A DNA stretch of 64,000 nt, taken from the NCBI GenBank assembly GCA_963708065.1, contig CAVPRZ010000004.1, positions 511,863 through 575,862 of the forward strand. The letters run 5' to 3'. This DNA is from an uncultured Chloroflexia bacterium (GTDB taxonomy: Bacteria > Chloroflexota > Limnocylindria > Limnocylindrales > CSP1-4). Below are positions 50,227-59,585 of this stretch, in pieces; within the stretch, counting starts at the first letter, position 1; every line of letters begins with the position of its first letter. Both the position numbers and the translations under genes were made by a program. Below the pieces are notes generated by a model. That model had not been told where the DNA came from. It saw only the letters and a list, made by a program, of their open reading frames with translations, and did no database searches.

Positions 50227-50811
50227 CTAGAGCCACCAGGTGGCGAGATCGGCGATCGAGTGGGCGACGGCCGGTGCGGCGATCCCGCCCGTCGCCAGAC
50301 GCAGACCGGCCAGCCACAGGCCAACCCCCAGATCGAGCGGCACGACCTGCCAGCCGTACAACGGCACGTGCATGAGCGCGAACACGAGACTCGTCACCAC
50401 AACAGCGCCGAGCGTGCCCAGGCTCCCATCGAGATCGTCGAACAGCGCACCGCGCAGAACGAGCTCCTCGGCGCTGGCGACGAGGATCGTCACGGCGGCC
50501 CACGGAGCGAAGGCGGCTGACGGTGCGAGCCACGGGAGCTGGCCGGATCGCGTCACCACCGCGACCACGATCAGGACCGCACCGCCCGCCGCCCCGACGA
50601 CGTACGACGAGCGGCGCTCGGGTCGCGGCCGCCAGCCTCCCCCGAGACCCGCCGCGAGCAGGCCGGCCCCAAAGATCAGCCCGATCGTCACGGCTCCGGC
50701 TGCGCCCCGGGTGGTCAACGCCCAGCGTAGCCCGACGATCGCGGCCAGCCCCACGAGGATGAGCGCAGGCCGGACGATCCCACCGGCGGGACGAACGGCG
50801 CTCGCGGTCAT
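50227..50811 (-). CDS. CPBP intramembrane protease
   Basis: AEELVLRG, FALMH and AHSIAD motifs. Confidence 0.85.
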   Translation of the reverse strand: MTASAVRPAGGIVRPALILVGLAAIVGLRWALTTRGAAGAVTIGLIFGAGLLAAGLGGGWRPRPERRSSYVVGAAGGAVLIVVAVVTRSGQLPWLAPSAAFAPWAAVTILVASAEELVLRGALFDDLDGSLGTLGAVVVTSLVFALMHVPLYGWQVVPLDLGVGLWLAGLRLATGGIAAPAVAHSIADLATWWL

Positions 50812-52214
50812 CGGTCGAGCGGGACGAAGCCGACCTCGCCGGTCTGGTACGTCGGCGGCCAGACGAACGTGTACGAGCGAACCGCCTGCCACTGCCAGAT
50901 CACCGCGGCCGCTCGTTCGTTCTGGCCGAGGCTCCCGAGATCGGATGAGAAGCGAAGCCCGGCACCGTTGGGCAGCGATCCTGTCGGCAGGTCGATCGAG
51001 CGCGCCGCAGCCGCGACAGCGGAGGCATCGAGCGAACCAGCTCTGGCCGCGGACGGCAGGACGTCGTGGAACAGGGCCCAGGCGGCGGCAAAGCCCGACA
51101 GGCCTTCCTCGCTCGGGCCGGCCGCGGCAGAACCCGCCGCGACCGGTCCGCTGATCGGGTATTCGGACGGGCTTCCCGCGGGTTCTGACCCGTATCCGCG
51201 TGCCCCGTAGTCGCCTGACGGGCTCGACCCACGACCGCGTGCCGCCCAGGAGGCGGCGAACCGGTCGTACAGCGCCCGGGCGGCGGGATCAAGCGCCGAG
51301 GGCTGGAAGCCGCCCGTCGGGCGATCCGAGGCGAACACGCCGATCGCATCTGGCCCGAGGTCGCCCGCGAAGTCGGGATCGCATTCGGCCATCGTCGAGC
51401 CGATGAGCGCGCCGACCCGAAGGTTCGCGGCGATCATCGCCCGGCGGAACGCGACGCCGTCGGGGATGTGCGAGGCGAGAATGACCACGTCAGGTCGAGC
51501 CGCCTCGAGCCTGGCCATCACGGCCGGGAAGTCTGGGACCGTCAGGTCGTACTGCTCGCGCGCCACGATCGGCACGCCTTCGTTCTCGGCGCCGGCGGCA
51601 GCCGCGTCGGCCACGGATCGGGCGTAGTCGTCGGCGGCGGCCACGATCGCGACCCGCAGCTGAGTCGGCGCCTTTGCGAGCCGCGGCGCGATCTGGCTTG
51701 CAGCGAACGCTGCCGAGTTCGACCCGAGGTTCGAGCCGCTCGCGCCGACCCGGAAGACGAGCGGCAAGCCGCGGCCGGTCAGCCGGTCGGCCACCGCCCC
51801 CGCCTCCCAGTACACGAGACCGTCGTCGTTCGCGGCCTGGCTGGCCGGGATCGACAGTGCCGATGAGTACGCGCCGATCACGACGCTTGCTCCGTCGGCT
51901 CTGAGCGCGGCCATGACCGCGGGCGCATTGTCGGCAGATTCGAGGTCGCGGACGTCGAGGACGATCCGCCGACCCTCGATGCCCCCGGCGGCATTGACGA
52001 AGTCGGCCGCCGCCCGGACTCCGGCGAGCTCTTCCTGCGCGAGGCTCGCCGCGTTGCCATTCAGCGGAAACACGGCGCCGATCCGGACGTCGCCGGCCGC
52101 GCTGACAGGGGAGGTGGAGCGCGGTTGAACGGGCGAGGCGCACGCCACTGCCGCGACGAGCACCACGGCCGCAAGAAACAGGGCCGACGATCGGCGAGAG
52201 GAGCTGGCGGACAT
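50808..52214 (-). CDS. Periplasmic-binding-protein type 1 (LivJ-like) substrate-binding lipoprotein
   Basis: Lipobox AVAC; VRIGAVFPLNG, NAAGGIEGRRIVL, IGAYSS; GAGGAGG RBS. Confidence 0.85.
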   Translation of the reverse strand: MSASSSRRSSALFLAAVVLVAAVACASPVQPRSTSPVSAAGDVRIGAVFPLNGNAASLAQEELAGVRAAADFVNAAGGIEGRRIVLDVRDLESADNAPAVMAALRADGASVVIGAYSSALSIPASQAANDDGLVYWEAGAVADRLTGRGLPLVFRVGASGSNLGSNSAAFAASQIAPRLAKAPTQLRVAIVAAADDYARSVADAAAAGAENEGVPIVAREQYDLTVPDFPAVMARLEAARPDVVILASHIPDGVAFRRAMIAANLRVGALIGSTMAECDPDFAGDLGPDAIGVFASDRPTGGFQPSALDPAARALYDRFAASWAARGRGSSPSGDYGARGYGSEPAGSPSEYPISGPVAAGSAAAGPSEEGLSGFAAAWALFHDVLPSAARAGSLDASAVAAAARSIDLPTGSLPNGAGLRFSSDLGSLGQNERAAAVIWQWQAVRSYTFVWPPTYQTGEVGFVPLDR

Positions 52215-52264
52215 GATGCCTCCTCGAACGGTCATGGTGCACCTGATCGGCTTCTGGGCGGTGC

Positions 52265-53050
52265 TCAACGCTGGCCACCGCGACGACGGCGAGCTCGCCT
52301 GCGCTTCGGGGACCGCGGCGGACCCTGAGGTGACGCTCCGCCGCTAGTGATCGGCCGCCGCCGATCACTAGCCTGGAGATAGCCGATGGCGAGGGCCGAC
52401 AGCACGGCCAGCACAACGCCCGCGGCGACGAGCCTCGGGTCCAGGCCAAGCAGGCCGGGATTCGGGGCTGCAATGAGGGCAAAGTCCCCGAGCGCAGTGG
52501 CGTTGGTCAGGTAGATGCCTGGCTGGCCCGAAGGCTCGGTCGGCAGCTCCTGCCAACCAGGGCCGACGTAGTACCCGATCGTTGCGGCGATGACGCCATC
52601 GGGCGCGCGCAGGACCACCGTCGGCCACGTTTCAGCATTGATCCTGAGCGGAGTGCCGGTCGAGTCGGACACGGCGAACCGATAGACGTTGCCCGCGATC
52701 GGGCCGTCCGAGGGAGTCGCCTGCGCGGCGACCGGCTGGACCGACACGTCGAGCGAGTCGACGCCGGTCGGGATCACGAATGCGCCCGGTGCGGCGATCA
52801 GCTGCGCCTGGGGCGGGCTCTCGGTGGTCGCCGCGACGATCTGCGGGCTTGTCGTGCCGGCGACCTGCAGCTGAGAGCTGAACGAGGTCGGCGAGCCGAC
52901 CTGACCCGGCCCCGGCGCAAGATAGCGATATGGTTCGCCAACCACGACGCCGTCGTACAGCGGCGGCGAGCCGAGCGGCGCCATGAGCTGGGCGACCACC
53001 ACGAGGGCCAGGCCGCCCAGGAGCGCAAGGAACGCCGCAGGCCATCTCAT
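52265..53050 (-). CDS. Exported protein with C-terminal TM anchor (PPLYDG family, paralogue 2)
   Basis: PPLYDG...EPYRY, PQAQL, GNVYRF; ATGA overlap with upstream gene. Confidence 0.75.
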   Translation of the reverse strand: MRWPAAFLALLGGLALVVVAQLMAPLGSPPLYDGVVVGEPYRYLAPGPGQVGSPTSFSSQLQVAGTTSPQIVAATTESPPQAQLIAAPGAFVIPTGVDSLDVSVQPVAAQATPSDGPIAGNVYRFAVSDSTGTPLRINAETWPTVVLRAPDGVIAATIGYYVGPGWQELPTEPSGQPGIYLTNATALGDFALIAAPNPGLLGLDPRLVAAGVVLAVLSALAIGYLQASDRRRPITSGGASPQGPPRSPKRRRARRRRGGQR

Positions 53051-53490
53051 TTGACCGTGAAGAAGACCTCCGGTGACCAGACTCGCGGATTGAACGGAGC
53101 GTGATCGGCGGCGACGAACTCGGCTTTGAGGACGTAGGTGCCCGGGTGAACCGGCAGGTCCTGCTCGAGTCCGTAGTTCATCGACACGAGCACGTTGTCG
53201 ACGTAGAGGTGCAGGTGGCCCTCGTCGGGGCGGATGTTCGTCGTCGTGGCGCTCACGATCTGGGCACCCGTCAACGACAGCACCACGTGGACGGTGGCTC
53301 CCGTGACGCTCTCCCCGGACACCGGCTTGACGATCGTGACCACGGCGGGTGACGACGGCCGATTGCCCGACGGGCTGGGGGCGGAGGGACCAGGGCTCGT
53401 CGGTGGCCCACTGGCCGATGGGCCGGCGCACGACAGCACGATCGTCGCGAGCAGGACCACAGCCAACGGCCTGTACCAATACCTGATCAT
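53047..53490 (-). CDS. His-motif Ig-like lipoprotein (putative metal binding)
   Basis: Lipobox VLSC; EGHLHLYVD and EFVAADHAPF motifs. Confidence 0.7.
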   Translation of the reverse strand: MIRYWYRPLAVVLLATIVLSCAGPSASGPPTSPGPSAPSPSGNRPSSPAVVTIVKPVSGESVTGATVHVVLSLTGAQIVSATTTNIRPDEGHLHLYVDNVLVSMNYGLEQDLPVHPGTYVLKAEFVAADHAPFNPRVWSPEVFFTVK

Positions 53491-53547: not shown

Positions 53548-55542
53548 TCACGAGCCCGGCGTGACGACAAGCTGGGCCTGGAGTTGTTCGCCGCCCGGTG
53601 CGGTTCCGACGATCGCAAGCGCCTGCGGGATGTCATGCGCCGTCAAGGTTGCGACGACGTGGCCCGGCTCGAGCGTCCGTACCGTCAGCCGACGAGGGTC
53701 GGTGGTCCCGGTCGTGACCGAGAGACCTATGTCCGTCGCCGGCAGCTCGCTGCCCGAGGCGTCGAAGAAGGTCACGTGCACGTCGTTCTGACCGGGCCGG
53801 TCGGGATCGAGATAGACCTGGACCGTACGGCCGGCGGTGAGATGGACGATGTACATCGTCGGAATGCCCGCCACCCGATTGACGTCCACCTCTGGAGGTG
53901 TCGCCTGAGCCACGACGGCGAGCGGCACCTCCACCGAGGAGGTCCCGTGCGCAACCAGGGCGACGATCTGCCACGTGCCGTCGATGGAGAGGTTGCCGCC
54001 CGTCGCACTGAAGACGCCCGCGTCGACGGGCGCCAGGTCAAGGCGAGAGCTCCCGATGTCCGATCGAGCCGGCACCGAGAAGCGCAGGGTCACGCCATCG
54101 GCGGCAACCGGCGCGGCGGTGTCGTAGTCGGTCACGATCGCCCGAAACGTGTTGAAGCCGGTCAGCCCGGGCGAGACCTCGAGGCGGAGCCGGACGGACG
54201 TCCCGAAGTCGCTGCCGCTGACCACGATTGGCTGCCGTCTCGGGCTCGGTGCCGGGGTCGGGCCAGACGCCGCGATCGACGTTGGGGGCGCGACGTTGAC
54301 GAGGGCGGCGGCCAGCAGGACGACCGTTGCGCCGACGACGATCTCGACCGAGCCGACCCGCCGGAGGCCTGTCAGGACGCGACCGGCGGCCGGGACGTTG
54401 CGGAAATGGTTGGCTGCCCCGAGCGCGGCGAGGACCGCGAGCAACGCCGTCTTGCCGATCAGGAGCCGCCCGAAATCGGTCGAGAACAGCGCGTCGATCG
54501 TCCCCACCTCGCTGATCCCGCGCAGGAGGCCGGTGATCGCGACCGCGACGATCCCAGCCGTCGCGACCCGTGAGAATCGTCTCGCCGCGCTCGCCGTCGC
54601 CCCGTCGGGAGGCCGGTGGCGGATCGTGGCGAGGAGGCCCACGAGACCGCCGATCCAGAACCCGACGGCGCCGACGTGGATGGACTGGATCACGACATCG
54701 AGAGCGGCCTGCCGGCCGGCCGCGGCATGGCTCGCCAGGACATCTGCGAGGAGAGCGCCGGCTGCGGCAAGGGCAACGATTGTCAGGACCAATCGATACC
54801 TTGCGACGCTGCGCGCGCCCAGAATGATGGCCGTGCCGGCAACGACGATGGGAACGACGCGTTCGACGATCACCGGTCCGAACGATGTACCCGAGACCTG
54901 CCCGACATCGACTCCGGCTTCGGCCAGCTCGTCCACGACCACCACGGCGGTGCCGACGGCGGCGAGCAGCCAGGCGGCCGGCAGGAGGCGTCCGACGATC
55001 GGGGCTGGCACTCGGGCCACGACCACCCCGAAGAAGCTCGCGCCCAGCAAGACGAGCAGCCCGACATACAACAGCCAGCGCCCCGCGATCGCGGCCGGCG
55101 AGGGCCCCGACGAGCTGGTTTGGGCCACCGGGTTCGCCCCGCCGCCCGATGCGGGCGCCGTACCAACGCCGAACGCGAAGGAGCCAGAGGCCCGGTGCCC
55201 GTCCACGGCCGACACCGTGCGCCAGGCGACGGTGTAGACGCCGCCGCCCAACGGTCGAAGTGGCACTTCAAGGGTCAGCGGGTCGCCGCTCGACGTCGCC
55301 GTAGGACCGGCCGTCACCGGGTTTCCGGACGAATCGAGTACGTTGATGGACGACAGCTTGGGATCAGGTCGCTCGCCGAACGTGATCGTCACCCTGGCCG
55401 GCGGAGTCGAGAGCGTGGAGCCGGGGCTCGGCGTCGACGACTGCGGCAGGGCGTGGGCGTCGGCCGACCCGGCCAGGGCAGGGAGGGCGATCAGCGCGAC
55501 CGCCGTCGCGCTGATCGCCAGCCTGGCCCATGATCGGACCAT
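53548..55542 (-). CDS. CopC-CopD fusion copper uptake protein (YcnJ-like) with C-terminal Ig-like domains
   Basis: ADA-HALPQSSTP mature His1, WRTVSAVDGH, ASHAAAG, HVGAVGFWIGGL, RRFS and FGRLLIGK motifs. Confidence 0.9.
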   Translation of the reverse strand: MVRSWARLAISATAVALIALPALAGSADAHALPQSSTPSPGSTLSTPPARVTITFGERPDPKLSSINVLDSSGNPVTAGPTATSSGDPLTLEVPLRPLGGGVYTVAWRTVSAVDGHRASGSFAFGVGTAPASGGGANPVAQTSSSGPSPAAIAGRWLLYVGLLVLLGASFFGVVVARVPAPIVGRLLPAAWLLAAVGTAVVVVDELAEAGVDVGQVSGTSFGPVIVERVVPIVVAGTAIILGARSVARYRLVLTIVALAAAGALLADVLASHAAAGRQAALDVVIQSIHVGAVGFWIGGLVGLLATIRHRPPDGATASAARRFSRVATAGIVAVAITGLLRGISEVGTIDALFSTDFGRLLIGKTALLAVLAALGAANHFRNVPAAGRVLTGLRRVGSVEIVVGATVVLLAAALVNVAPPTSIAASGPTPAPSPRRQPIVVSGSDFGTSVRLRLEVSPGLTGFNTFRAIVTDYDTAAPVAADGVTLRFSVPARSDIGSSRLDLAPVDAGVFSATGGNLSIDGTWQIVALVAHGTSSVEVPLAVVAQATPPEVDVNRVAGIPTMYIVHLTAGRTVQVYLDPDRPGQNDVHVTFFDASGSELPATDIGLSVTTGTTDPRRLTVRTLEPGHVVATLTAHDIPQALAIVGTAPGGEQLQAQLVVTPGS

Positions 55543-55547
55543 CGCTC

Positions 55548-56294
55548 TCAGGTCTGCCGGGGGCGACGGAGGACGAGCAGCAGAGCGGCGCCGCCGAGGA
55601 TGACCCCGAGCGCTCCGGCGAGGAGTCCCACGACAAGGGCGCTCGACGCCGCGTCGCGTGCCTGCGACGCGTTGGACTGGGCCGCGCTCACGGCGTCTGC
55701 GAGGGCGGCGTCCTGGCTCGGTGTCGAGGCGGCCGGCGAGGCGGCCGGCGCCGGGCTCGCCGACAGCCGGGCGTTGATCCGATCCAGGTTCGTCGTGACC
55801 TCGGTCAGCGACGGGAGCTTGGCCGGGAACTGGATGTCGGTGTCGTCGACGGCGGAGTTGAAGGTCGACTCGCTCGAGGTCGCCGTCTCATCGACCGTCG
55901 TGTCGTGGACCTTGCCGGTCAGGTGGAAGGTATAGTCCCCGGGCACCGTCGGGATCAGGGGCGCTTCGTAGTCGCCGGGCGTCCCCAGACCGGTATCCTC
56001 GTCGTACGTGGCGACGAGGTCGAGTGGAGCCGAGTCCTGGCCGCCCACGCTCACGACGATCTTGAGGTCGCCGTCGGCGATATCGGTGACGGGTTTGCCG
56101 CGGGCATCCTTGACGACGACTTGCACGGCATTGAGCTGGCCGACATAGGTCGGTTCGTGGACCCAGCCCAGGGCCACGCTGTACGGTCCGAAGTCCTTCA
56201 GGACGTGGGCCTGCGCCGAGCCGACGATGAGGGCGGCTGCAACGGCCGCGGTGGGCAGGGCGACGCCCAGGCGTCGCAATCGAGAAGTCTGCAT
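55548..56294 (-). CDS. Exported protein with predicted mature N-terminal His and C-terminal TM anchor (putative Cu-binding)
   Basis: Signal peptide AQA-H; GWVHEP; PTVPGDYTFHL; TM plus RRPR tail; GGAGG RBS. Confidence 0.75.
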   Translation of the reverse strand: MQTSRLRRLGVALPTAAVAAALIVGSAQAHVLKDFGPYSVALGWVHEPTYVGQLNAVQVVVKDARGKPVTDIADGDLKIVVSVGGQDSAPLDLVATYDEDTGLGTPGDYEAPLIPTVPGDYTFHLTGKVHDTTVDETATSSESTFNSAVDDTDIQFPAKLPSLTEVTTNLDRINARLSASPAPAASPAASTPSQDAALADAVSAAQSNASQARDAASSALVVGLLAGALGVILGGAALLLVLRRPRQT

Positions 56295-56296
56295 TG

Positions 56297-56441
56297 GAGC
56301 CTCCGCCGGCGCACCTCGCCCGAAGGTCGAGGGCCGATTGATCGCTGTCGGTATTGGGCGCCGCATCTGCGGTCCGCGGTCGCTTTCCGCACTCGCGTGA
56401 CGGTCGCGACCTCAGAGAGCGATCGGGCGAGGAGGGGCTCT
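56297..56441 (-). promoter_or_regulatory. RBS-sequestering structure overlapping RAPP codons of the leader gene
   Basis: CCTCGCCCGA (56432-56423) complementary to TCGGGCGAGG (56323-56314); GAGCC in the RAPP codons complementary to GGCTC at the GGAGGCTC RBS. Confidence 0.6.
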
Positions 56442-57062
56442 CCCGGCGATCTGGTGACTGACGATCGCGCCGTGGCGCGGGTTGATCCAGGGTAGATTCG
56501 GTCGAGCCGACGACTGTCGGGCGCGCGTCCAGCGAGCCCGAGCCGACACGATCCGCGCGATCAGCACTTCCCGGCGCCAGCGATACAGGCCTTCCACGAG
56601 GGCGGCGGCAAACGCGACCCCGGCGAAGACTGCAAGCGTGTCGTGATAGTCGCCCGAACCCAGGACGCTCAGACCGGGCGCCACCAGCCCGGCAGCAACG
56701 TGCTCGAGATTCTCGGCTGCGACAAACAGAACGAGCGCGCCGATCAGGACCTGCAGCCACGCCCGACCGATCAGTCGGATCGTCGTTCGGATCCCAGCCC
56801 AGGGGCTCTCAGCGCCGTCGAGGGCGCGCCCGAGCCTGGACAGTTGGGCCAGGCGTAGCGCGCCCGCAGCCACGAGCGCGAGCGCGAGGACCACGACCAG
56901 GGCGACGGTGGCCGTCCAGTGAGCGCCGTGACCAGTCCTTGCGAGCGCAGCGCCGGAGCCTTCGCCATACGTGAGCAGGAATGTCAGGTTGTGGGCGAGC
57001 GCGAACACGACGAGCGCCAGCGCCGCGGTCCGCGCTCGGTCACGCCAGGGATTCGATGTCAC
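56412..57062 (-). CDS. Four-TM His-containing membrane protein ending in RAPP motif (putative arrest-peptide leader)
   Basis: LAHNL, GHGAHW, ENLEH; C-terminus IAGRAPPRPIAL*; TAGAGT -10 box 6 nt before GTG. Confidence 0.75.
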   Translation of the reverse strand: MTSNPWRDRARTAALALVVFALAHNLTFLLTYGEGSGAALARTGHGAHWTATVALVVVLALALVAAGALRLAQLSRLGRALDGAESPWAGIRTTIRLIGRAWLQVLIGALVLFVAAENLEHVAAGLVAPGLSVLGSGDYHDTLAVFAGVAFAAALVEGLYRWRREVLIARIVSARARWTRARQSSARPNLPWINPRHGAIVSHQIAGRAPPRPIAL

Positions 57063-57724
57063 CCCGTGACTCTACGCGACGATGCTCAGGAACGCCCAAA
57101 CTGGCGGTTGGAGGCCCGGCGAGGACGGATCAGTCATCTACCTGCCGCCCCTGCTGCCGCCCTCGCTCCTTCCTCACGGGTAGCGCCCCTCGGTACGTGG
57201 CGTCGCACTCTCGGTTGCGCTGTCCGGCGGGCCGAGTCCGGCGACAGGCAATCGACCGACTCGGGCCAGGGTCGTGCGCATGGGACGCCCCCGATGGAAG
57301 TGCGGCCCAACCGACGGGGGACCATCGGTCGGGCACTGATCCAACCCTCGGCACTCGAGCCGGTGATCGCTGCCCTCCGGTCGTACCACCGAGCCCAGCC
57401 GATCGGAGCGGTCTTCCAGGCCCTATCCATCACCCGACGATGAGTCGCGGGGTTCCGCCTCGGAGGGCGTGGCAGCCCCTCCGGGAGGCAGGTCAGTTTC
57501 GCACGAACGAGGCGGCAATCCGCCGACGAACGGAGAGGCCGCCGTCGAGGGATACAGATCCCCGGGCGGCGGCCCGATGAGTCCGGGTGGCCTCTTCGCC
57601 GGCGGTGGCCGGACGGTGGGGACGGGCCCTCGTAACGCGTCTCGGTCACGGAGGGTGGCGGCTGGCCATCCTCCGGGCCGGCACGGGTCACGCGGTTCCG
57701 CACACAGCCTCAGACTCGACCGTA

Positions 57725-57818
57725 AGCGTACGCCTCCGGGCGCCGCAGGCAAGTCCAGATCGGTCCCCCCGATTGGGCCGATGGACCCCCTTGAATCGCC
57801 CCGTGCCCGTGCTATGCT
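57725..57818. promoter_or_regulatory. Back-to-back sigma70-like promoters
   Basis: Minus strand TTGCCT-N16-TACGCT (57752-57725); plus strand TTGAAT-N16-TATGCT with TGn extension (57791-57818). Confidence 0.45.
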
Positions 57819-57871
57819 CCGCGACCCGTCGTTCGACGGCCGGCACCTCCACCAGAGGATCGGGATCGACC

Positions 57872-59346
57872 TTGCCCGCACGCTCAGCGTCGCCCTCGCC
57901 GACCGTCGCGGCCAGCGCCACTGAGGCGCTCCCCATCCCGTCGACCGCTCCGACCACCGCCCAGCTGGCCCTCGGCCTGCCCGGCCTCGCGCCGATCGAG
58001 CTGCCCGCGCTCGCGATCGCCCCCGAGTGGAAGGACCAGCAGCGCCTGTGGGGCCACCGGCTCCATCCCGATGTGCTCGTACCTGGCGAGCTTCCCGGCC
58101 GCCCTCGCCCATGCCTTCATCGCCCGCTACTCCCGCCCCGGCGACGTCGTCCTCGACCCGTTCAGCGGGCGCGGGACGACCCCGCTCCAGGCCTGCGCCG
58201 AGGGCCGGATCGGCGTCGGCAACGACCTCAACCCGTTCGCCCACCTGCTGACGGCCGCCAAGGTCGAGCCCGCCTCGGAGGCCGAGACGCGGGTCCGGCT
58301 GACGTCGCTCCGGCTGCGCTGGGCCGGCGAGGCCGACGCGTGGTTTCGGCTCGCGCTCGAGGTGCTCGGCGCGGCCGGCCCGGACGGGGCGCGCGTGCCG
58401 CCCGCCGGGAGCGGGCTCCGACCGGGCGACGACGGGGCCGCGGCCGAGCCGGTCCCGGTCGAGGTCGCGCTGAGCTTCCACCCGCGGACCTTCGCCCAGC
58501 TCCTGTTCGTCCGCTCGGCGCTCCGGCTCGACGATCGGGTCGACCGGTTCCTCGCCGCCGCGATCACCGGCATCCTCCACGGCAAGAGCGCGACCTACCT
58601 CTCGGAGGTCATGCCCAACACGTTCAGCATGGCCCCCCGCTACGTCCGCGAGTTCGTGGCCCGGACCGGCTTCCGGTCGCCGGAGCGCGACGTCTTCGAC
58701 TGCCTCGAGGCCAAGCTCGGCCGGCTCCATCGCGAGCCGCTCCCGCCGGTCCGCGGGATCGCCCTGCTCGGGGATGCCCGCGACGCCGGCGTCCGGGCGC
58801 AGGCCGCCCTGCGCGAACGGGGTCTCCCGGATCGGGCCCGGCTGGTCGTCACGTCGCCGCCCTACCTGCGGGTCGTGAAGTACGGCTACTACAACTGGCT
58901 CCGCACCTGGTTCCTCGGGTTCGACGCCGCCGCGATCGACGCGGCGCTCGACGACGCCCACCACAAGACGGCCTACCTGCAGTTCCTCCGCGACGCGCTC
59001 GACGGCCTCCGGCCGGCCCTCGCCGACGATGCGGTCGTCGTGCTCGTCATCGGCGACGTCGAGGCCGACCGCGGCCGGCGGATCGCCCACGGCATCGGGC
59101 TGGCCGAGGCGGTCTGGGAGGCGGTCGGCCGCACCGGCCGGCTACCGCCTCGCGGGGATCGCCCTCGACGACGTCCATGCCGGCCGGAAGATGACCAAGC
59201 TGTGGGGCGACGAGGCCGGGCAGGCGACCAAGCTCGACCGGATCCTCGTGCTGGGCGCGTCGGAGGCCGGGCGCCGCCGGGCCGTCAACGGGGCCGGCCT
59301 GCCGGTCGACTGGGAGTGGCCGCCTCGGCGCCTGCGTGCCGTGTAG
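57872..59346 (+). CDS. Orphan DNA amino-methyltransferase (N4-C/N6-A; frameshifts near 58070 and 59130)
   Basis: HPMCSYLASFP, VLDPFSGRGTT (motif I), later VTSPPY (motif IV), VIGD. Confidence 0.88.
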
Positions 59347-59357
59347 GATTCCGCCCC

Positions 59358-59585
59358 ATGGAGCGGATGTACGACCCCGGCGAGCTCGCGGCCATGGACC
59401 CGCTGGTCCTCATGAAGAACCTCGACCACGTCCGGATGACGAGCCGGCGCCTCAGCTACATCCTCCAGCAGCAGGTCCATCTCTACGCGCCCGAGGCGAA
59501 CCAGCTCCGCGACCAGATCGACCGCTACGTCGAGGCCGAGCGCCAGATCGAGGGCGAGATGGCCCGCCGCCGGATCCGCGCCTGA
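59358..59585 (+). CDS. Small helical hypothetical protein (75 aa)
   Basis: Host-like codon usage; TAGGAT -10 box 8 nt before ATG; coiled-coil-like C-terminus. Confidence 0.75.
   Translation: MERMYDPGELAAMDPLVLMKNLDHVRMTSRRLSYILQQQVHLYAPEANQLRDQIDRYVEAERQIEGEMARRRIRA

What the first reader, a model, noticed from the sequence alone, without database searches (positions are those of the whole stretch)
56294..57062. Membrane-embedded RAPP arrest-peptide leader whose codons can lock the RBS of a copper-uptake operon
Seen: the first gene of the copper operon encodes a 4-TM protein with His clusters (AHN, GHGAHW, ENLEH) ending ...IAG-RAPP-RPIAL*. The mRNA at and just after the RAPP codons (GAGCC..CCTCGCCCGA, 56440-56423) is complementary to TCGGGCGAGG (56323-56314, a perfect 10 bp) and to the GGAGGCTC ribosome-binding site (56304-56297) of the next gene. 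Established: RAPP-type motifs stall ribosomes (ApdA/ApdP), and DUF2946 CruR/CutF-type leaders with RAPP regulate downstream Cu genes, but those are small CxxC proteins. Inference: a Cys-free, polytopic, His-based sensor; a ribosome stalled on RAPP would free the RBS, and Cu binding or membrane insertion would release the stall and shut off uptake.
Basis: partly seen in the sequence, partly recalled or inferred. Interest (0 to 1): 0.9.

Follow-up and report, generated by a model that had tools for sequence, protein, structure and literature searches.

The report
Membrane RAPP arrest leader before copper genes
A four-helix membrane protein that always ends in the ribosome-stalling motif RAPP sits in front of copper-handling genes and most likely acts as a stalling sensor for them, a kind of switch described in print in 2025, while the proposed RNA lock on the next gene's ribosome-binding site is real in this sequence but not conserved.

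Summary
The sequence facts are exact. ORF 56412-57062(-) encodes a 216-aa protein with four hydrophobic helices ending IAGRAPPRPIAL*.

The protein belongs to a large family with no Pfam or NCBIfam match (607 50%-identity clusters). RAPP or RGPP lies near the C-terminus in 195 of 204 members, and RAPP, H24, E117 and E120 are invariant in a 74-sequence alignment. The TM4-to-RAPP spacing is conserved. Downstream genes are copper-themed: an N-terminal-His Ig-like protein plus CopC-CopD, CopC plus CtaG, a cupredoxin, SCO1/SenC. This strongly supports an arrest-peptide sensor.

The RBS lock is weaker. The helix is unique in this locus by exact match, but it has pair probability about 0.2, competes with a local UUCG hairpin, and is not conserved or covarying. 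Family-wide, the arrest codons are biased toward anti-SD CUCC (25 of 48 loci against 16% expected).

The novelty claim is overstated. Fujiwara et al. (EMBO J 2025) described transmembrane RAPP/RGPP arrest peptides upstream of YcnI and copper genes, including a four-TM, His-based one. Verdict: a new member of a known kind. The direction of the copper response and the coupling step (RBS masking or Rho) are untested.

The parts
56412..57062 (-). Leader/sensor gene: a 216-aa four-helix membrane protein ending RAPP plus 5 residues
   Evidence: ORF. No Pfam or NCBIfam hit. 58 homologues and 607 representative clusters. AF2 gives four helices. Topology.
56430..56441 (-). RAPP codons AGA GCC CCT CCT, the predicted arrest site (Pro210 codon in the P site, Pro211 codon in the A site, by analogy)
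   Evidence: Sequence. R208, A209, P210 and P211 are invariant in 74 of 74 rows. The P/A-site assignment comes from the CruR toeprint in PMC12992588 section 14 and was not tested here.
56412..56429 (-). Variable 5-codon tail (RPIAL) and the TGA stop
   Evidence: The tail after the motif is 5 aa in 112 of 195 members, and its sequence is not conserved.
56423..56432 (-). 5' arm CCTCGCCCGA (second Pro codon plus tail codons), which lies inside a stalled ribosome's footprint
   Evidence: Pair probability with the 3' arm is about 0.2.
56314..56323 (-). 3' arm TCGGGCGAGG, 20-29 nt before the downstream start
56314..56333 (-). Competing local hairpin CCCUCGACC-UUCG-GGCGAGG, which uses the same 3' arm
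   Evidence: Present in the MFE of the free, stalled and IGR-only folds. Prediction only.
56297..56304 (-). GGAGGCTC: the Shine-Dalgarno GGAGG (56300-56304) of the next gene. GGCTC complements GAGCC at 56436-56440.
   Evidence: The spacer to the ATG is 5 nt.
55548..56294 (-). 248-aa protein with a signal peptide, an Ig-like beta-sandwich, a C-terminal membrane anchor and an invariant N-terminal His after cleavage (YcnI-like architecture, but not a DUF1775 member)
   Evidence: No Pfam hit. AF2 pLDDT 83. The best PDB fold match is the H. pylori copper protein CrdA, E=2.2e-4. H30 and E47 are invariant.
53548..55542 (-). 664-aa CopC-CopD fusion (YcnJ-like)
   Evidence: Pfam CopC 2.9e-20 and CopD 2.2e-18, with a weak YtkA hit at 0.099. 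NCBIfam hits CopD and CopC but below its cut-offs.
53047..53490 (-). 147-aa DUF4399 protein, next gene on the same strand
   Evidence: Pfam PF14347, 1.9e-6, 28.6 bits against a cut-off of 28.

Best explanation
The 216-aa ORF is a translation-arrest leader and sensor. It is an N-in/C-in four-helix membrane protein.

Its invariant polar residues (H24, H45, E117, N118, E120) lie toward the outer face. This follows from the positive-inside rule and is inferred.

Its cytoplasmic tail ends in RAPP, a motif that stalls ribosomes with Pro-tRNA in the A site. That is established for ApdA, ApdP, CruR and seven S. lividans proteins. It is inferred for this protein.

The stalled ribosome keeps the downstream copper-acquisition genes expressed: the N-terminal-His Ig-like protein, the CopC-CopD fusion and DUF4399. 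It could do this by covering arrest-site codons that otherwise pair with the next gene's SD region, or by blocking Rho.

A signal at the membrane domain then changes the pull on the nascent chain and releases the arrest. The most likely signal is Cu(II) binding at the His/Glu site, which would allow TM4 to pack or insert.

By analogy with CruR, copper would release the stall and turn uptake off.

What is shown here: family conservation, synteny, spacing and codon bias. What is inferred: stalling itself, the metal, the direction of the response, and the coupling step.
For: (1) Motif conservation. RAPP (193) or RGPP (2) lies within 20 aa of the C-terminus in 195 of 204 family proteins. Of the 9 exceptions, 3 have RSPP or RDPP and the rest look truncated or aberrant. 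R208, A209, P210 and P211 are invariant in 74 of 74 rows at 26-55% identity, while the tail sequence varies.

(2) Spacing. The distance from W162 to R208 is 43-46 residues in 127 of the 141 members with a recognisable xRWx motif; 56 members had no such motif. The tail is 5 aa in 112 of 195. CruR likewise keeps its sensor-to-RAPP spacing.

(3) Genome searches. The family is found in 21 of 401 genomes of the phylum and in 105 of 401 of the class at E<=1e-20.

(4) Synteny. Of 45 loci with an SD-supported downstream ORF:
- 32 have the window's N-His Ig-like protein.
- 6 have a CopC protein.
- 7 have something else.
Pfam on the other downstream genes gives a cupredoxin (L017), SCO1/SenC (L027), Caa3_CtaG after CopC (L003), Peripla_BP_6 (L013) and BNR (L026).

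(5) Sensor residues. H24, E117 and E120 are invariant, H45 is present in 70 of 74 rows and N118 in 70 of 74. 110 of 204 members have no Cys.

(6) Anti-SD codon bias. CTCC occurs in the R-A-P-P codons in 25 of 48 loci, against 15.7% expected from synonymous usage and 40 of 265 at other AP/PP dipeptides. The figure is 52% after collapsing to 42 clusters.

(7) Codon choice and pairing. Real arrest-region codons pair with their own SD region better than synonymous resamples. Fisher p is 3e-7 (-22..+3), 0.0013 (SD core) and 0.023 (-35..+3). A control stretch of the leader gives 0.98.

(8) SD accessibility. Modelled P(unpaired) of the SD core rises from 0.20 to 0.27 when the footprint is removed, in 31 of 42 loci (Wilcoxon 0.001).

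(9) Literature. RAPP is strongly excluded from proteomes and is refractory to EF-P. Transmembrane RAPP/RGPP proteins upstream of YcnI and copper genes arrest translation in an Arg-dependent way.
Against: - There is no experiment on this protein or this organism. Stalling, metal binding and regulation are all inferred.
- In the window's own locus the RNA tests are negative or weak. Fold z-score is -0.21. P(SD unpaired) goes 0.44 to 0.45, and for the SD core 0.17 to 0.13. P(SD paired to the footprint) is 0.10.
- The 10-bp helix has pair probability about 0.2 and loses by 3.1 kcal/mol to a structure with a local UUCG hairpin. Its synonymous-codon p is 0.85-0.91.
- The helix is not conserved and RNAalifold finds no covariation.
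- The U-ending codon bias also affects the second Pro (CCT in 11 of 48). It could therefore reflect decoding or tRNA selection rather than RNA pairing.
- Loci are related, so the p-values are overstated.
- The conserved membrane domain could have a function of its own.
- His/Glu/Asn ligands do not identify the metal.
- 3D clustering of the conserved residues was not measured, because no model coordinates were available to me.
Confidence: 0.7

Rival explanations
1. The protein is an arrest leader, but the coupling is CruR-like. The stalled ribosome blocks Rho access, and release of the stall lets Rho terminate transcription in the intergenic region. The RBS-pairing helix would then be incidental.
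For: - This mechanism is shown for CruR (PMC9426467, passages read).
- The genome encodes Rho (PF07497, 103 bits).
- Intergenic regions of the family have C>G skew in 39 of 42 loci, mean 0.138 against 0.05-0.07 in the flanking ORFs.
- There is no intrinsic terminator or Rfam element in the region.
- The helix is not conserved.
Against: - The window's own intergenic region has no C>G skew (-0.01).
- The intergenic regions are short (mean 69 nt) and predicted to be highly structured, which is unfavourable for a rut site.
- The CUCC and synonymous-codon signals are not explained by Rho.
Confidence: 0.25
2. The protein is chiefly a working membrane component of the copper pathway, for example a Cu(II)-binding relay or assembly partner for the anchored Ig-like protein or CopCD. 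The RAPP pause would only tune its own co-translational insertion or its stoichiometry with the downstream genes. It would not be a copper-responsive switch.
For: - The membrane domain is well conserved (mean column identity 41% in A1) and has invariant His/Glu residues.
- The family is long for a leader (about 215 aa).
- AF2 gives a confident helical bundle.
- In silico, SD opening is weak.
Against: - The same leader type precedes at least five unrelated families of copper proteins. That pattern fits a regulatory module better than a dedicated partner.
- RAPP is strongly avoided in proteomes (PMC12992588 abstract), so an invariant RAPP with a variable tail and fixed spacing argues that the arrest itself is the selected function.
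- The published four-TM RAPP proteins arrest translation.
Confidence: 0.12
3. The protein is an arrest leader with the opposite polarity, like CutF: copper binding induces or prolongs the stall and turns the downstream genes on.
For: - CutF shows copper-induced stalling that melts an SD-shielding stem-loop (bioRxiv 10.1101/2025.02.05.636593, abstract and passages read).
- CopC/CopD systems have also been linked to copper resistance.
Against: - The downstream sets (YcnJ-like CopC-CopD, SCO1/SenC, CtaG, cupredoxin) point to acquisition or cuproenzyme assembly rather than detoxification.
- No multicopper oxidase or efflux pump was seen next to the leaders that were examined.
Confidence: 0.2
4. 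RAPP and the complementary arms are chance features of a GC-rich ORF.
For: - R, A and P are GC-rich codons, so RAPP near a C-terminus is expected a few times per high-GC proteome (my own estimate, not computed).
- The energy tests on the helix are null.
Against: - 195 of 204 family members keep the motif.
- It is invariant at 26% identity.
Confidence: 0.02

Closest known systems
Transmembrane RAPP/RGPP arrest peptides upstream of YcnI-family and copper genes, e.g. S. lividans SLIV_18480 (Fujiwara et al., EMBO J 2025, PMC12992588)
   Same: - Under 300 aa, with four predicted TM segments.
- RAPP-type motif near the C-terminus.
- A same-strand, metal-related downstream gene.
- Conserved His residues proposed as a copper site.
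- Proposed to be a metal-sensing arrest peptide.
   Different: - SLIV_18480 has a predicted 3-His+Met site and paired Cys40/Cys127. This family has invariant His2Glu2(+Asn), and more than half of its members have no Cys.
- The host is Chloroflexota (class with Ca. Limnocylindrales), not Actinomycetota.
- Homology between the two could not be tested, because I had no SLIV_18480 sequence and the supplements were closed.
- Arrest is shown experimentally there and not here.
CruR (DUF2946) of Bordetella pertussis (Roy et al., mBio 2022, PMC9426467)
   Same: - C-terminal RAPP a few residues before the stop.
- First gene of a copper-acquisition operon.
- Conserved spacing of about 45 residues between the sensor element and RAPP.
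- GC-rich locus with a long intergenic region.
   Different: - CruR is a 145-aa exported protein with CxxC; this one is a four-TM protein without Cys.
- There is no DUF2946 match.
- CruR couples through Rho, and it is not known whether this one does.
- CruR's RAPP uses frequent codons. Here U-ending codons are enriched.
CutF (DUF2946) of Rhodobacter capsulatus (Ozturk et al., bioRxiv 2022 and 2025)
   Same: [quoted passage not shown]
- The sensor faces the periplasm.
   Different: - CutF has a signal peptide, CxxxC and a PPP motif.
- Copper induces its stall and turns on a detoxifying oxidase.
- Its stem-loop has been verified by mutation.
ApdA/ApdP, SecM and MifM monitoring substrates
   Same: - RAPP (ApdA/ApdP) or RAGP-type arrest.
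- An N-terminal localisation signal.
- Arrest released by pulling force.
- Arrest exposes the downstream gene's RBS.
   Different: - Those monitor Sec/YidC activity and precede secDF, secA or yidC.
- They lack a conserved polytopic domain with metal-ligand residues.
B. subtilis ycnKJI copper-uptake operon
   Same: - A CopC-CopD(-YtkA-like) fusion next to a membrane-anchored extracytoplasmic protein with an N-terminal His.
   Different: - The regulator there is the transcriptional repressor YcnK. Here the first gene is an arrest-type leader.
- The anchored protein here is not a DUF1775 member.

Membership tests
RAPP/RGPP-type regulatory arrest peptides (criteria used by Fujiwara et al. 2025) | Small protein (under 300 aa) with RAPP or RGPP close to the C-terminus | tested here: met
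   216 aa, with RAPP 5 residues from the end. 195 of 204 relatives are alike.
RAPP/RGPP-type regulatory arrest peptides (criteria used by Fujiwara et al. 2025) | N-terminal localisation signal (signal peptide or TM segments) | tested here: met
   Four hydrophobic segments, with positive-inside charge pattern giving N-in/C-in. AF2 gives four helices. No dedicated TM predictor was available.
RAPP/RGPP-type regulatory arrest peptides (criteria used by Fujiwara et al. 2025) | Same-direction downstream gene, with conserved association | tested here: met
   45 of 48 loci have an SD-supported same-strand ORF within 260 nt. 38 of the 45 are the N-His Ig-like protein or CopC.
RAPP/RGPP-type regulatory arrest peptides (criteria used by Fujiwara et al. 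2025) | Arg-dependent translation arrest shown by peptidyl-tRNA accumulation or toeprint | not testable with these tools
   Needs in vitro translation. No RNA or ribosome data are available for this organism (one search lists no RNA holder).
DUF2946 (CruR/CutF) | Match to the Pfam DUF2946 model | tested here: not met
   0 Pfam families at E<=0.1 and 0 NCBIfam families.
DUF2946 (CruR/CutF) | Conserved CxxC/CxxxC metal motif and a Sec signal peptide | tested here: not met
   The window protein has no Cys (the 216-aa translation), and 110 of 204 relatives have none. It has four TM segments instead of a cleaved signal peptide.
DUF2946 (CruR/CutF) | C-terminal RAPP or Pro-rich arrest motif heading a copper operon | tested here: met
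YcnI / DUF1775 (for the downstream 248-aa gene) | Match to the Pfam DUF1775 model | tested here: not met
   No hit for the window protein. DUF1775 is not among the 25 families listed (of 30) for the 27 members scanned at E<=1.
YcnI / DUF1775 (for the downstream 248-aa gene) | Signal peptide, N-terminal His after cleavage, a nearby Glu ligand and a C-terminal TM helix | tested here: met
   H30 (after AQA) and E47 are invariant in 27 sequences. AF2 gives a beta-sandwich at 30-145 and a C-terminal helix at 194-242. The features are taken from PMC8424229.
YcnI / DUF1775 (for the downstream 248-aa gene) | Fold similarity to solved YcnI | tested here: inconclusive
   No YcnI entry is among the 50 Foldseek PDB matches listed. 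The best match is CrdA (E=2.2e-4, TM 0.60 on the target). Generic Ig-like folds dominate the list.
CopC-CopD fusion (YcnJ-like) for 53548-55542 | CopC and CopD Pfam domains in one protein | tested here: met
   CopC 73.5 bits and CopD 67 bits, both above their cut-offs.

The most novel reading that the evidence does not exclude
A polytopic membrane protein reads extracytoplasmic Cu(II) with an invariant His2Glu2(Asn) site. It converts binding into packing or insertion of TM4, and so into the pulling force that releases a RAPP arrest about 45 residues downstream. This would be a one-protein, kinase-free mechanical relay from outside the membrane to the ribosome. In addition, the arrest codons themselves (GCU/CCU-CCN, giving CUCC) would double as the anti-Shine-Dalgarno element for the next gene.
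Probability: 0.25. Interest if true: 0.75.

Novelty: new member of a known kind. Interest (0 to 1): 0.5.

Why it matters
Fujiwara et al. 2025 left two questions open: what generates the force that releases RAPP arrests outside the Sec/YidC context, and whether such arrests really regulate downstream genes. This family is a clean system for both.

- It is large (607 clusters at 50% identity).
- It has an invariant candidate metal site on the outer face.
- It has a fixed TM4-to-RAPP distance.
- It has modular copper-related targets.

It also suggests that in these Chloroflexota the ycn-type uptake operon is controlled by a nascent-chain sensor in place of a YcnK-type repressor. Finally, it gives a testable codon-level signature: CUCC in the arrest codons as an anti-SD element.

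Tried and rejected
RNA tests that did not support the lock in this locus:
- Fold z-score.
- Footprint masking.
- Duplex energy against other ORF windows.
- Synonymous resampling for L001.
- RNAalifold on the 10 closest orthologues.

Annotation and structure searches of the leader that found nothing:
- Rfam.
- Promoter and terminator scan of the intergenic region.
- Foldseek against PDB, best E=1.2.
- The protein atlas gave only unnamed clusters, with commonest labelled phyla Actinomycetota, Chloroflexota and Vulcanimicrobiota. I treated this as a lead only.

Homology to the S. lividans four-TM arrest peptide could not be tested:
- A second word-indexed search with alignment A3 returned 58 hits and no informative names.
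- A cluster look-up named only one member, a Ca. Limnocylindrales MAG.

The downstream 248-aa protein had no PDB sequence hit below E=0.09.

Sequencing runs: no RNA holder is listed. I did not lay reads.

The supplementary files of PMC12992588 (Appendix Figs S5-S7 and source data) were closed. They may already list this family or Chloroflexota members.

Rows dropped before counts:
- A1 used 46 of the 58 hits. I left out P0001 and 11 near-duplicate 218-aa proteins.
- L019 and L046 were discarded as false motif picks. L018, L020, L021 and L025 had no leader.
- L029, L044 and L047 were excluded from the RNA tests because the downstream ORF call was doubtful or truncated.
- A2 used 27 of the 32 class-A proteins.

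Unpublished genomes:
- L013 (G145) and L040 (G604) are included in the locus counts.
- The statement about Peripla_BP_6 directly after a leader rests on L013 alone.
- G451, G478, G514, G651 and G669 contribute only to the tally.
Full report
**1. What is in the sequence**

On the minus strand, ORF 56412..57062 (GTG start, 216 aa) ends ...SHQIAGRAPPRPIAL*. The RAPP codons are AGA GCC CCT CCT at 56441-56430, and the stop is at 56414-56412.

CCTCGCCCGA (56432-56423) is the exact reverse complement of TCGGGCGAGG (56323-56314). GAGCC (56440-56436) complements GGCTC (56301-56297). GGAGG (56304-56300) lies 5 nt before the ATG at 56294.

The protein has four hydrophobic stretches: 12-30, 51-69, 97-115 and 142-160. 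K+R counts are 3 (N-terminus), 1 (loop 1), 5 (loop 2), 0 (loop 3) and 12 (C-tail). By the positive-inside rule this puts both ends in the cytoplasm and loops 1 and 3 outside. AlphaFold2 with 47 sequences gives four long helices and a disordered end (pLDDT 79, pTM 0.66). Foldseek finds no PDB match below E=1.2.

**2. It is a real, large family with no Pfam or NCBIfam match**

Pfam and NCBIfam give nothing. A word-indexed search found 58 relatives, one of them named as a Ca. Limnocylindrales MAG. A profile search of 1.84 billion representatives found 607 clusters at E<=1e-3 and 430 at E<=1e-10.

In genomes, the family is found in 21 of 401 sampled from the phylum. At E<=1e-20 it is found in 105 of 401 sampled from the class. 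It occurs in two families of that class and was not found in the three other families sampled there. The window's genome has a second copy on contig 6, and one genome has four copies.

**3. The RAPP end is the most conserved feature**

Of the 204 family proteins I held, 193 have RAPP and 2 have RGPP within 20 residues of the C-terminus. Of the 9 without, 3 have RSPP or RDPP and the others look truncated or aberrant.

In a 74-sequence alignment at 26-55% identity to the window protein, the only invariant columns are H24, E117, E120, R208, A209, P210 and P211. The residues after the motif vary freely, but their number does not: it is 5 in 112 of 195.

The distance from the conserved W at the cytoplasmic end of TM4 to the Arg of RAPP is 43-46 in 127 of the 141 members with a recognisable xRWx motif. 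56 members lacked that motif.

Distant members in another family of the phylum use RSPP.

An invariant RAPP with a fixed ruler to the last membrane helix and a free tail is what an arrest peptide looks like. Published work says RAPP and RGPP give robust, EF-P-refractory arrest and are strongly excluded from proteomes (PMC12992588, abstract and sections 13-15 read).

**4. Candidate sensor site**

H24 is invariant. G44, H45 and W49 are in loop 1. E117, N118 and E120 are at the outer end of TM3. P129 and G130 are in loop 3. All are invariant or present in at least 88% of rows, and by topology all lie toward the outside.

Cys is not conserved, and 110 of 204 members have none.

A His2Glu2(Asn) set is compatible with Cu(II) but does not identify the metal. 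I could not measure distances between these residues in the model.

**5. What lies downstream**

In the window the order is:
- the leader;
- a 248-aa protein (55548-56294);
- a 664-aa CopC-CopD fusion with a weak YtkA-like hit, the architecture of B. subtilis YcnJ;
- a DUF4399 protein.

The 248-aa protein has no Pfam hit. AlphaFold2 gives a confident Ig-like beta-sandwich (residues 30-145) and a C-terminal membrane helix. H30, the first residue after AQA, and E47 are invariant in 27 homologues. The best PDB fold match is the H. pylori copper protein CrdA (E=2.2e-4). It therefore resembles YcnI in architecture (N-terminal His, nearby Glu, C-terminal anchor, next to CopCD; features from PMC8424229), but it is not a DUF1775 member.

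Across 48 loci with a leader, 45 have an SD-supported same-strand ORF within 260 nt. Of these, 32 are this Ig-like protein, 6 are CopC proteins and 7 are something else.

Pfam on the other downstream genes gives a cupredoxin, SCO1/SenC, Peripla_BP_6 and a BNR protein. The gene after CopC is a Caa3_CtaG assembly factor.

One leader type in front of several unrelated copper-handling families argues for a regulatory module tied to copper acquisition or cuproenzyme assembly.

**6. The RBS lock: this locus**

In favour: the 10-bp complement is the only perfect complement of 8 nt or more between the 48 nt before the start and the 732 nt upstream, and it falls on the arrest window. None of 51 background windows reaches 10 bp; their maximum is 7. 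The 191-nt MFE contains it.

Against:
- That fold is no more stable than shuffles (z=-0.21).
- With more context the MFE replaces the helix with a local hairpin, CCCUCGACC-UUCG-GGCGAGG, on the same 3' arm. Forcing the helix costs 3.1 kcal/mol, and its pair probability is about 0.2.
- Masking a stalled ribosome's footprint leaves the SD as paired as before: 0.44 to 0.45 for SD plus start, and 0.17 to 0.13 for the SD core.
- 44 of 70 other ORF windows pair with the SD region at least as well.
- Synonymous recodings of the arrest region pair as well or better (p=0.85-0.91).

**7. The RBS lock: the family**

The intergenic regions (43-130 nt among the 27 N-His Ig-like loci printed) are not alignable even among the closest orthologues. 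The longest complement in the nearest orthologue is 6 bp, and 41 of 51 background windows match that. RNAalifold on the 10 closest orthologues finds no long-range helix: consensus -3 kcal/mol, with 5 local pairs.

A weaker, general signal does exist.
- The R-A-P-P codons contain CTCC, the complement of GGAG, in 25 of 48 loci. That compares with 15.7% expected from synonymous usage in the same genes and 40 of 265 at other Ala-Pro or Pro-Pro dipeptides. It is 52% after collapsing to 42 clusters.
- Real codons of the arrest region pair with their own SD region better than synonymous resamples. Fisher p is 3e-7 for -22..+3, 0.0013 for the SD core and 0.023 for -35..+3. An upstream control stretch gives 0.98.
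- The modelled SD core is more open once the footprint is removed in 31 of 42 loci (mean 0.20 to 0.27, Wilcoxon 0.001). In 12 loci the SD pairs with the footprint at P>=0.5.

Caveats:
- The loci are related.
- Several windows were tried.
- U-ending codons are also enriched at the second Pro, so tRNA or decoding selection is an alternative explanation.

**8. The rival coupling mechanism**

CruR works through Rho. The stall shields a rut site, and copper releases the stall so that Rho terminates transcription (PMC9426467, passages read).

Rho is encoded in this genome. Family intergenic regions are C>G in 39 of 42 loci, but the window's own is not (-0.01). No intrinsic terminator or Rfam element is present. 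I cannot decide between RBS masking and Rho.

**9. Comparison with what is known**

Since December 2025 the relevant comparison is Fujiwara et al. (PMC12992588). That paper reports:
- RAPP/RGPP ORFs under 300 aa are enriched upstream of YcnI-family, PCuAC, TonB-receptor and other genes.
- Most of those upstream of YcnI genes have TM segments.
- S. lividans SLIV_18480 has four TM segments and a predicted 3-His+Met site. Its downstream gene is metal-related, and it arrests translation in vitro and in vivo in an Arg-dependent way.
- The authors propose it as a metal sensor and ask where the releasing force comes from.

The window's protein fits that kind on every feature I could test. It is not a DUF2946 member. 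Whether it is homologous to SLIV_18480 is open: I had no sequence, and the supplements were closed.

My searches for RAPP, arrest peptides, YcnI, CopC and CutF turned up no paper on this Chloroflexota family specifically.

**10. Verdict**

The arrest-leader reading is well supported by comparative evidence (about 0.7).

The specific RBS lock is possible here (about 0.35), but it is not conserved and not favoured by folding models.

The direction of the copper response is a guess by analogy.

This is a new member of a known kind. It is of moderate interest, mainly as a clean system for the open question of how a metal signal is turned into release of a RAPP arrest.

Noticed in passing
L023 (own genome, contig 6, 272874-273527 +): The window's genome has a second copy of the leader family, ending ...DAGRAPPRPA*. 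It is followed after 97 nt by a 207-aa relative of the N-terminal-His Ig-like protein.
   Followed up: partly
L006, L022, L026, L027 (one genome, G124): One genome carries four leader copies in front of different genes: CopC (twice), a BNR-repeat protein and SCO1/SenC. This suggests a modular regulatory cassette.
   Followed up: partly
L014, L015, L017, L024: Distant family members in another family of the phylum end in RSPP instead of RAPP. They precede CopC, a cupredoxin or an unannotated 458-aa membrane protein. Whether RSPP arrests translation is unknown to me.
   Followed up: no
window 50808-52268 (-): A Peripla_BP_6 solute-binding protein lies on the same strand at the far end of the copper gene row. 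The same family sits directly after a leader in L013, which comes from an unpublished genome.
   Followed up: partly
window 56378-56411 (-): A 34-nt GC-rich hairpin (GGUCGC...GCGACC) is predicted immediately after the leader's stop codon. It has no U-tract. Its conservation was not tested.
   Followed up: no
window 58071-59585 (+): A 504-aa ORF with an N6_N4_Mtase DNA methylase domain (1.2e-15) lies about 1 kb upstream of the leader, on the opposite strand and pointing away from it. I did not find a convincing gene in the region between them (57063-58070).
   Followed up: no
L003, L006, L008 intergenic regions: In the CopC-type loci the sequence just after the stop (TCCCACCC) can pair with GGGTGGGA-like sequence upstream of the SD. 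This hints at alternative hairpins. It was seen by eye only.
   Followed up: no
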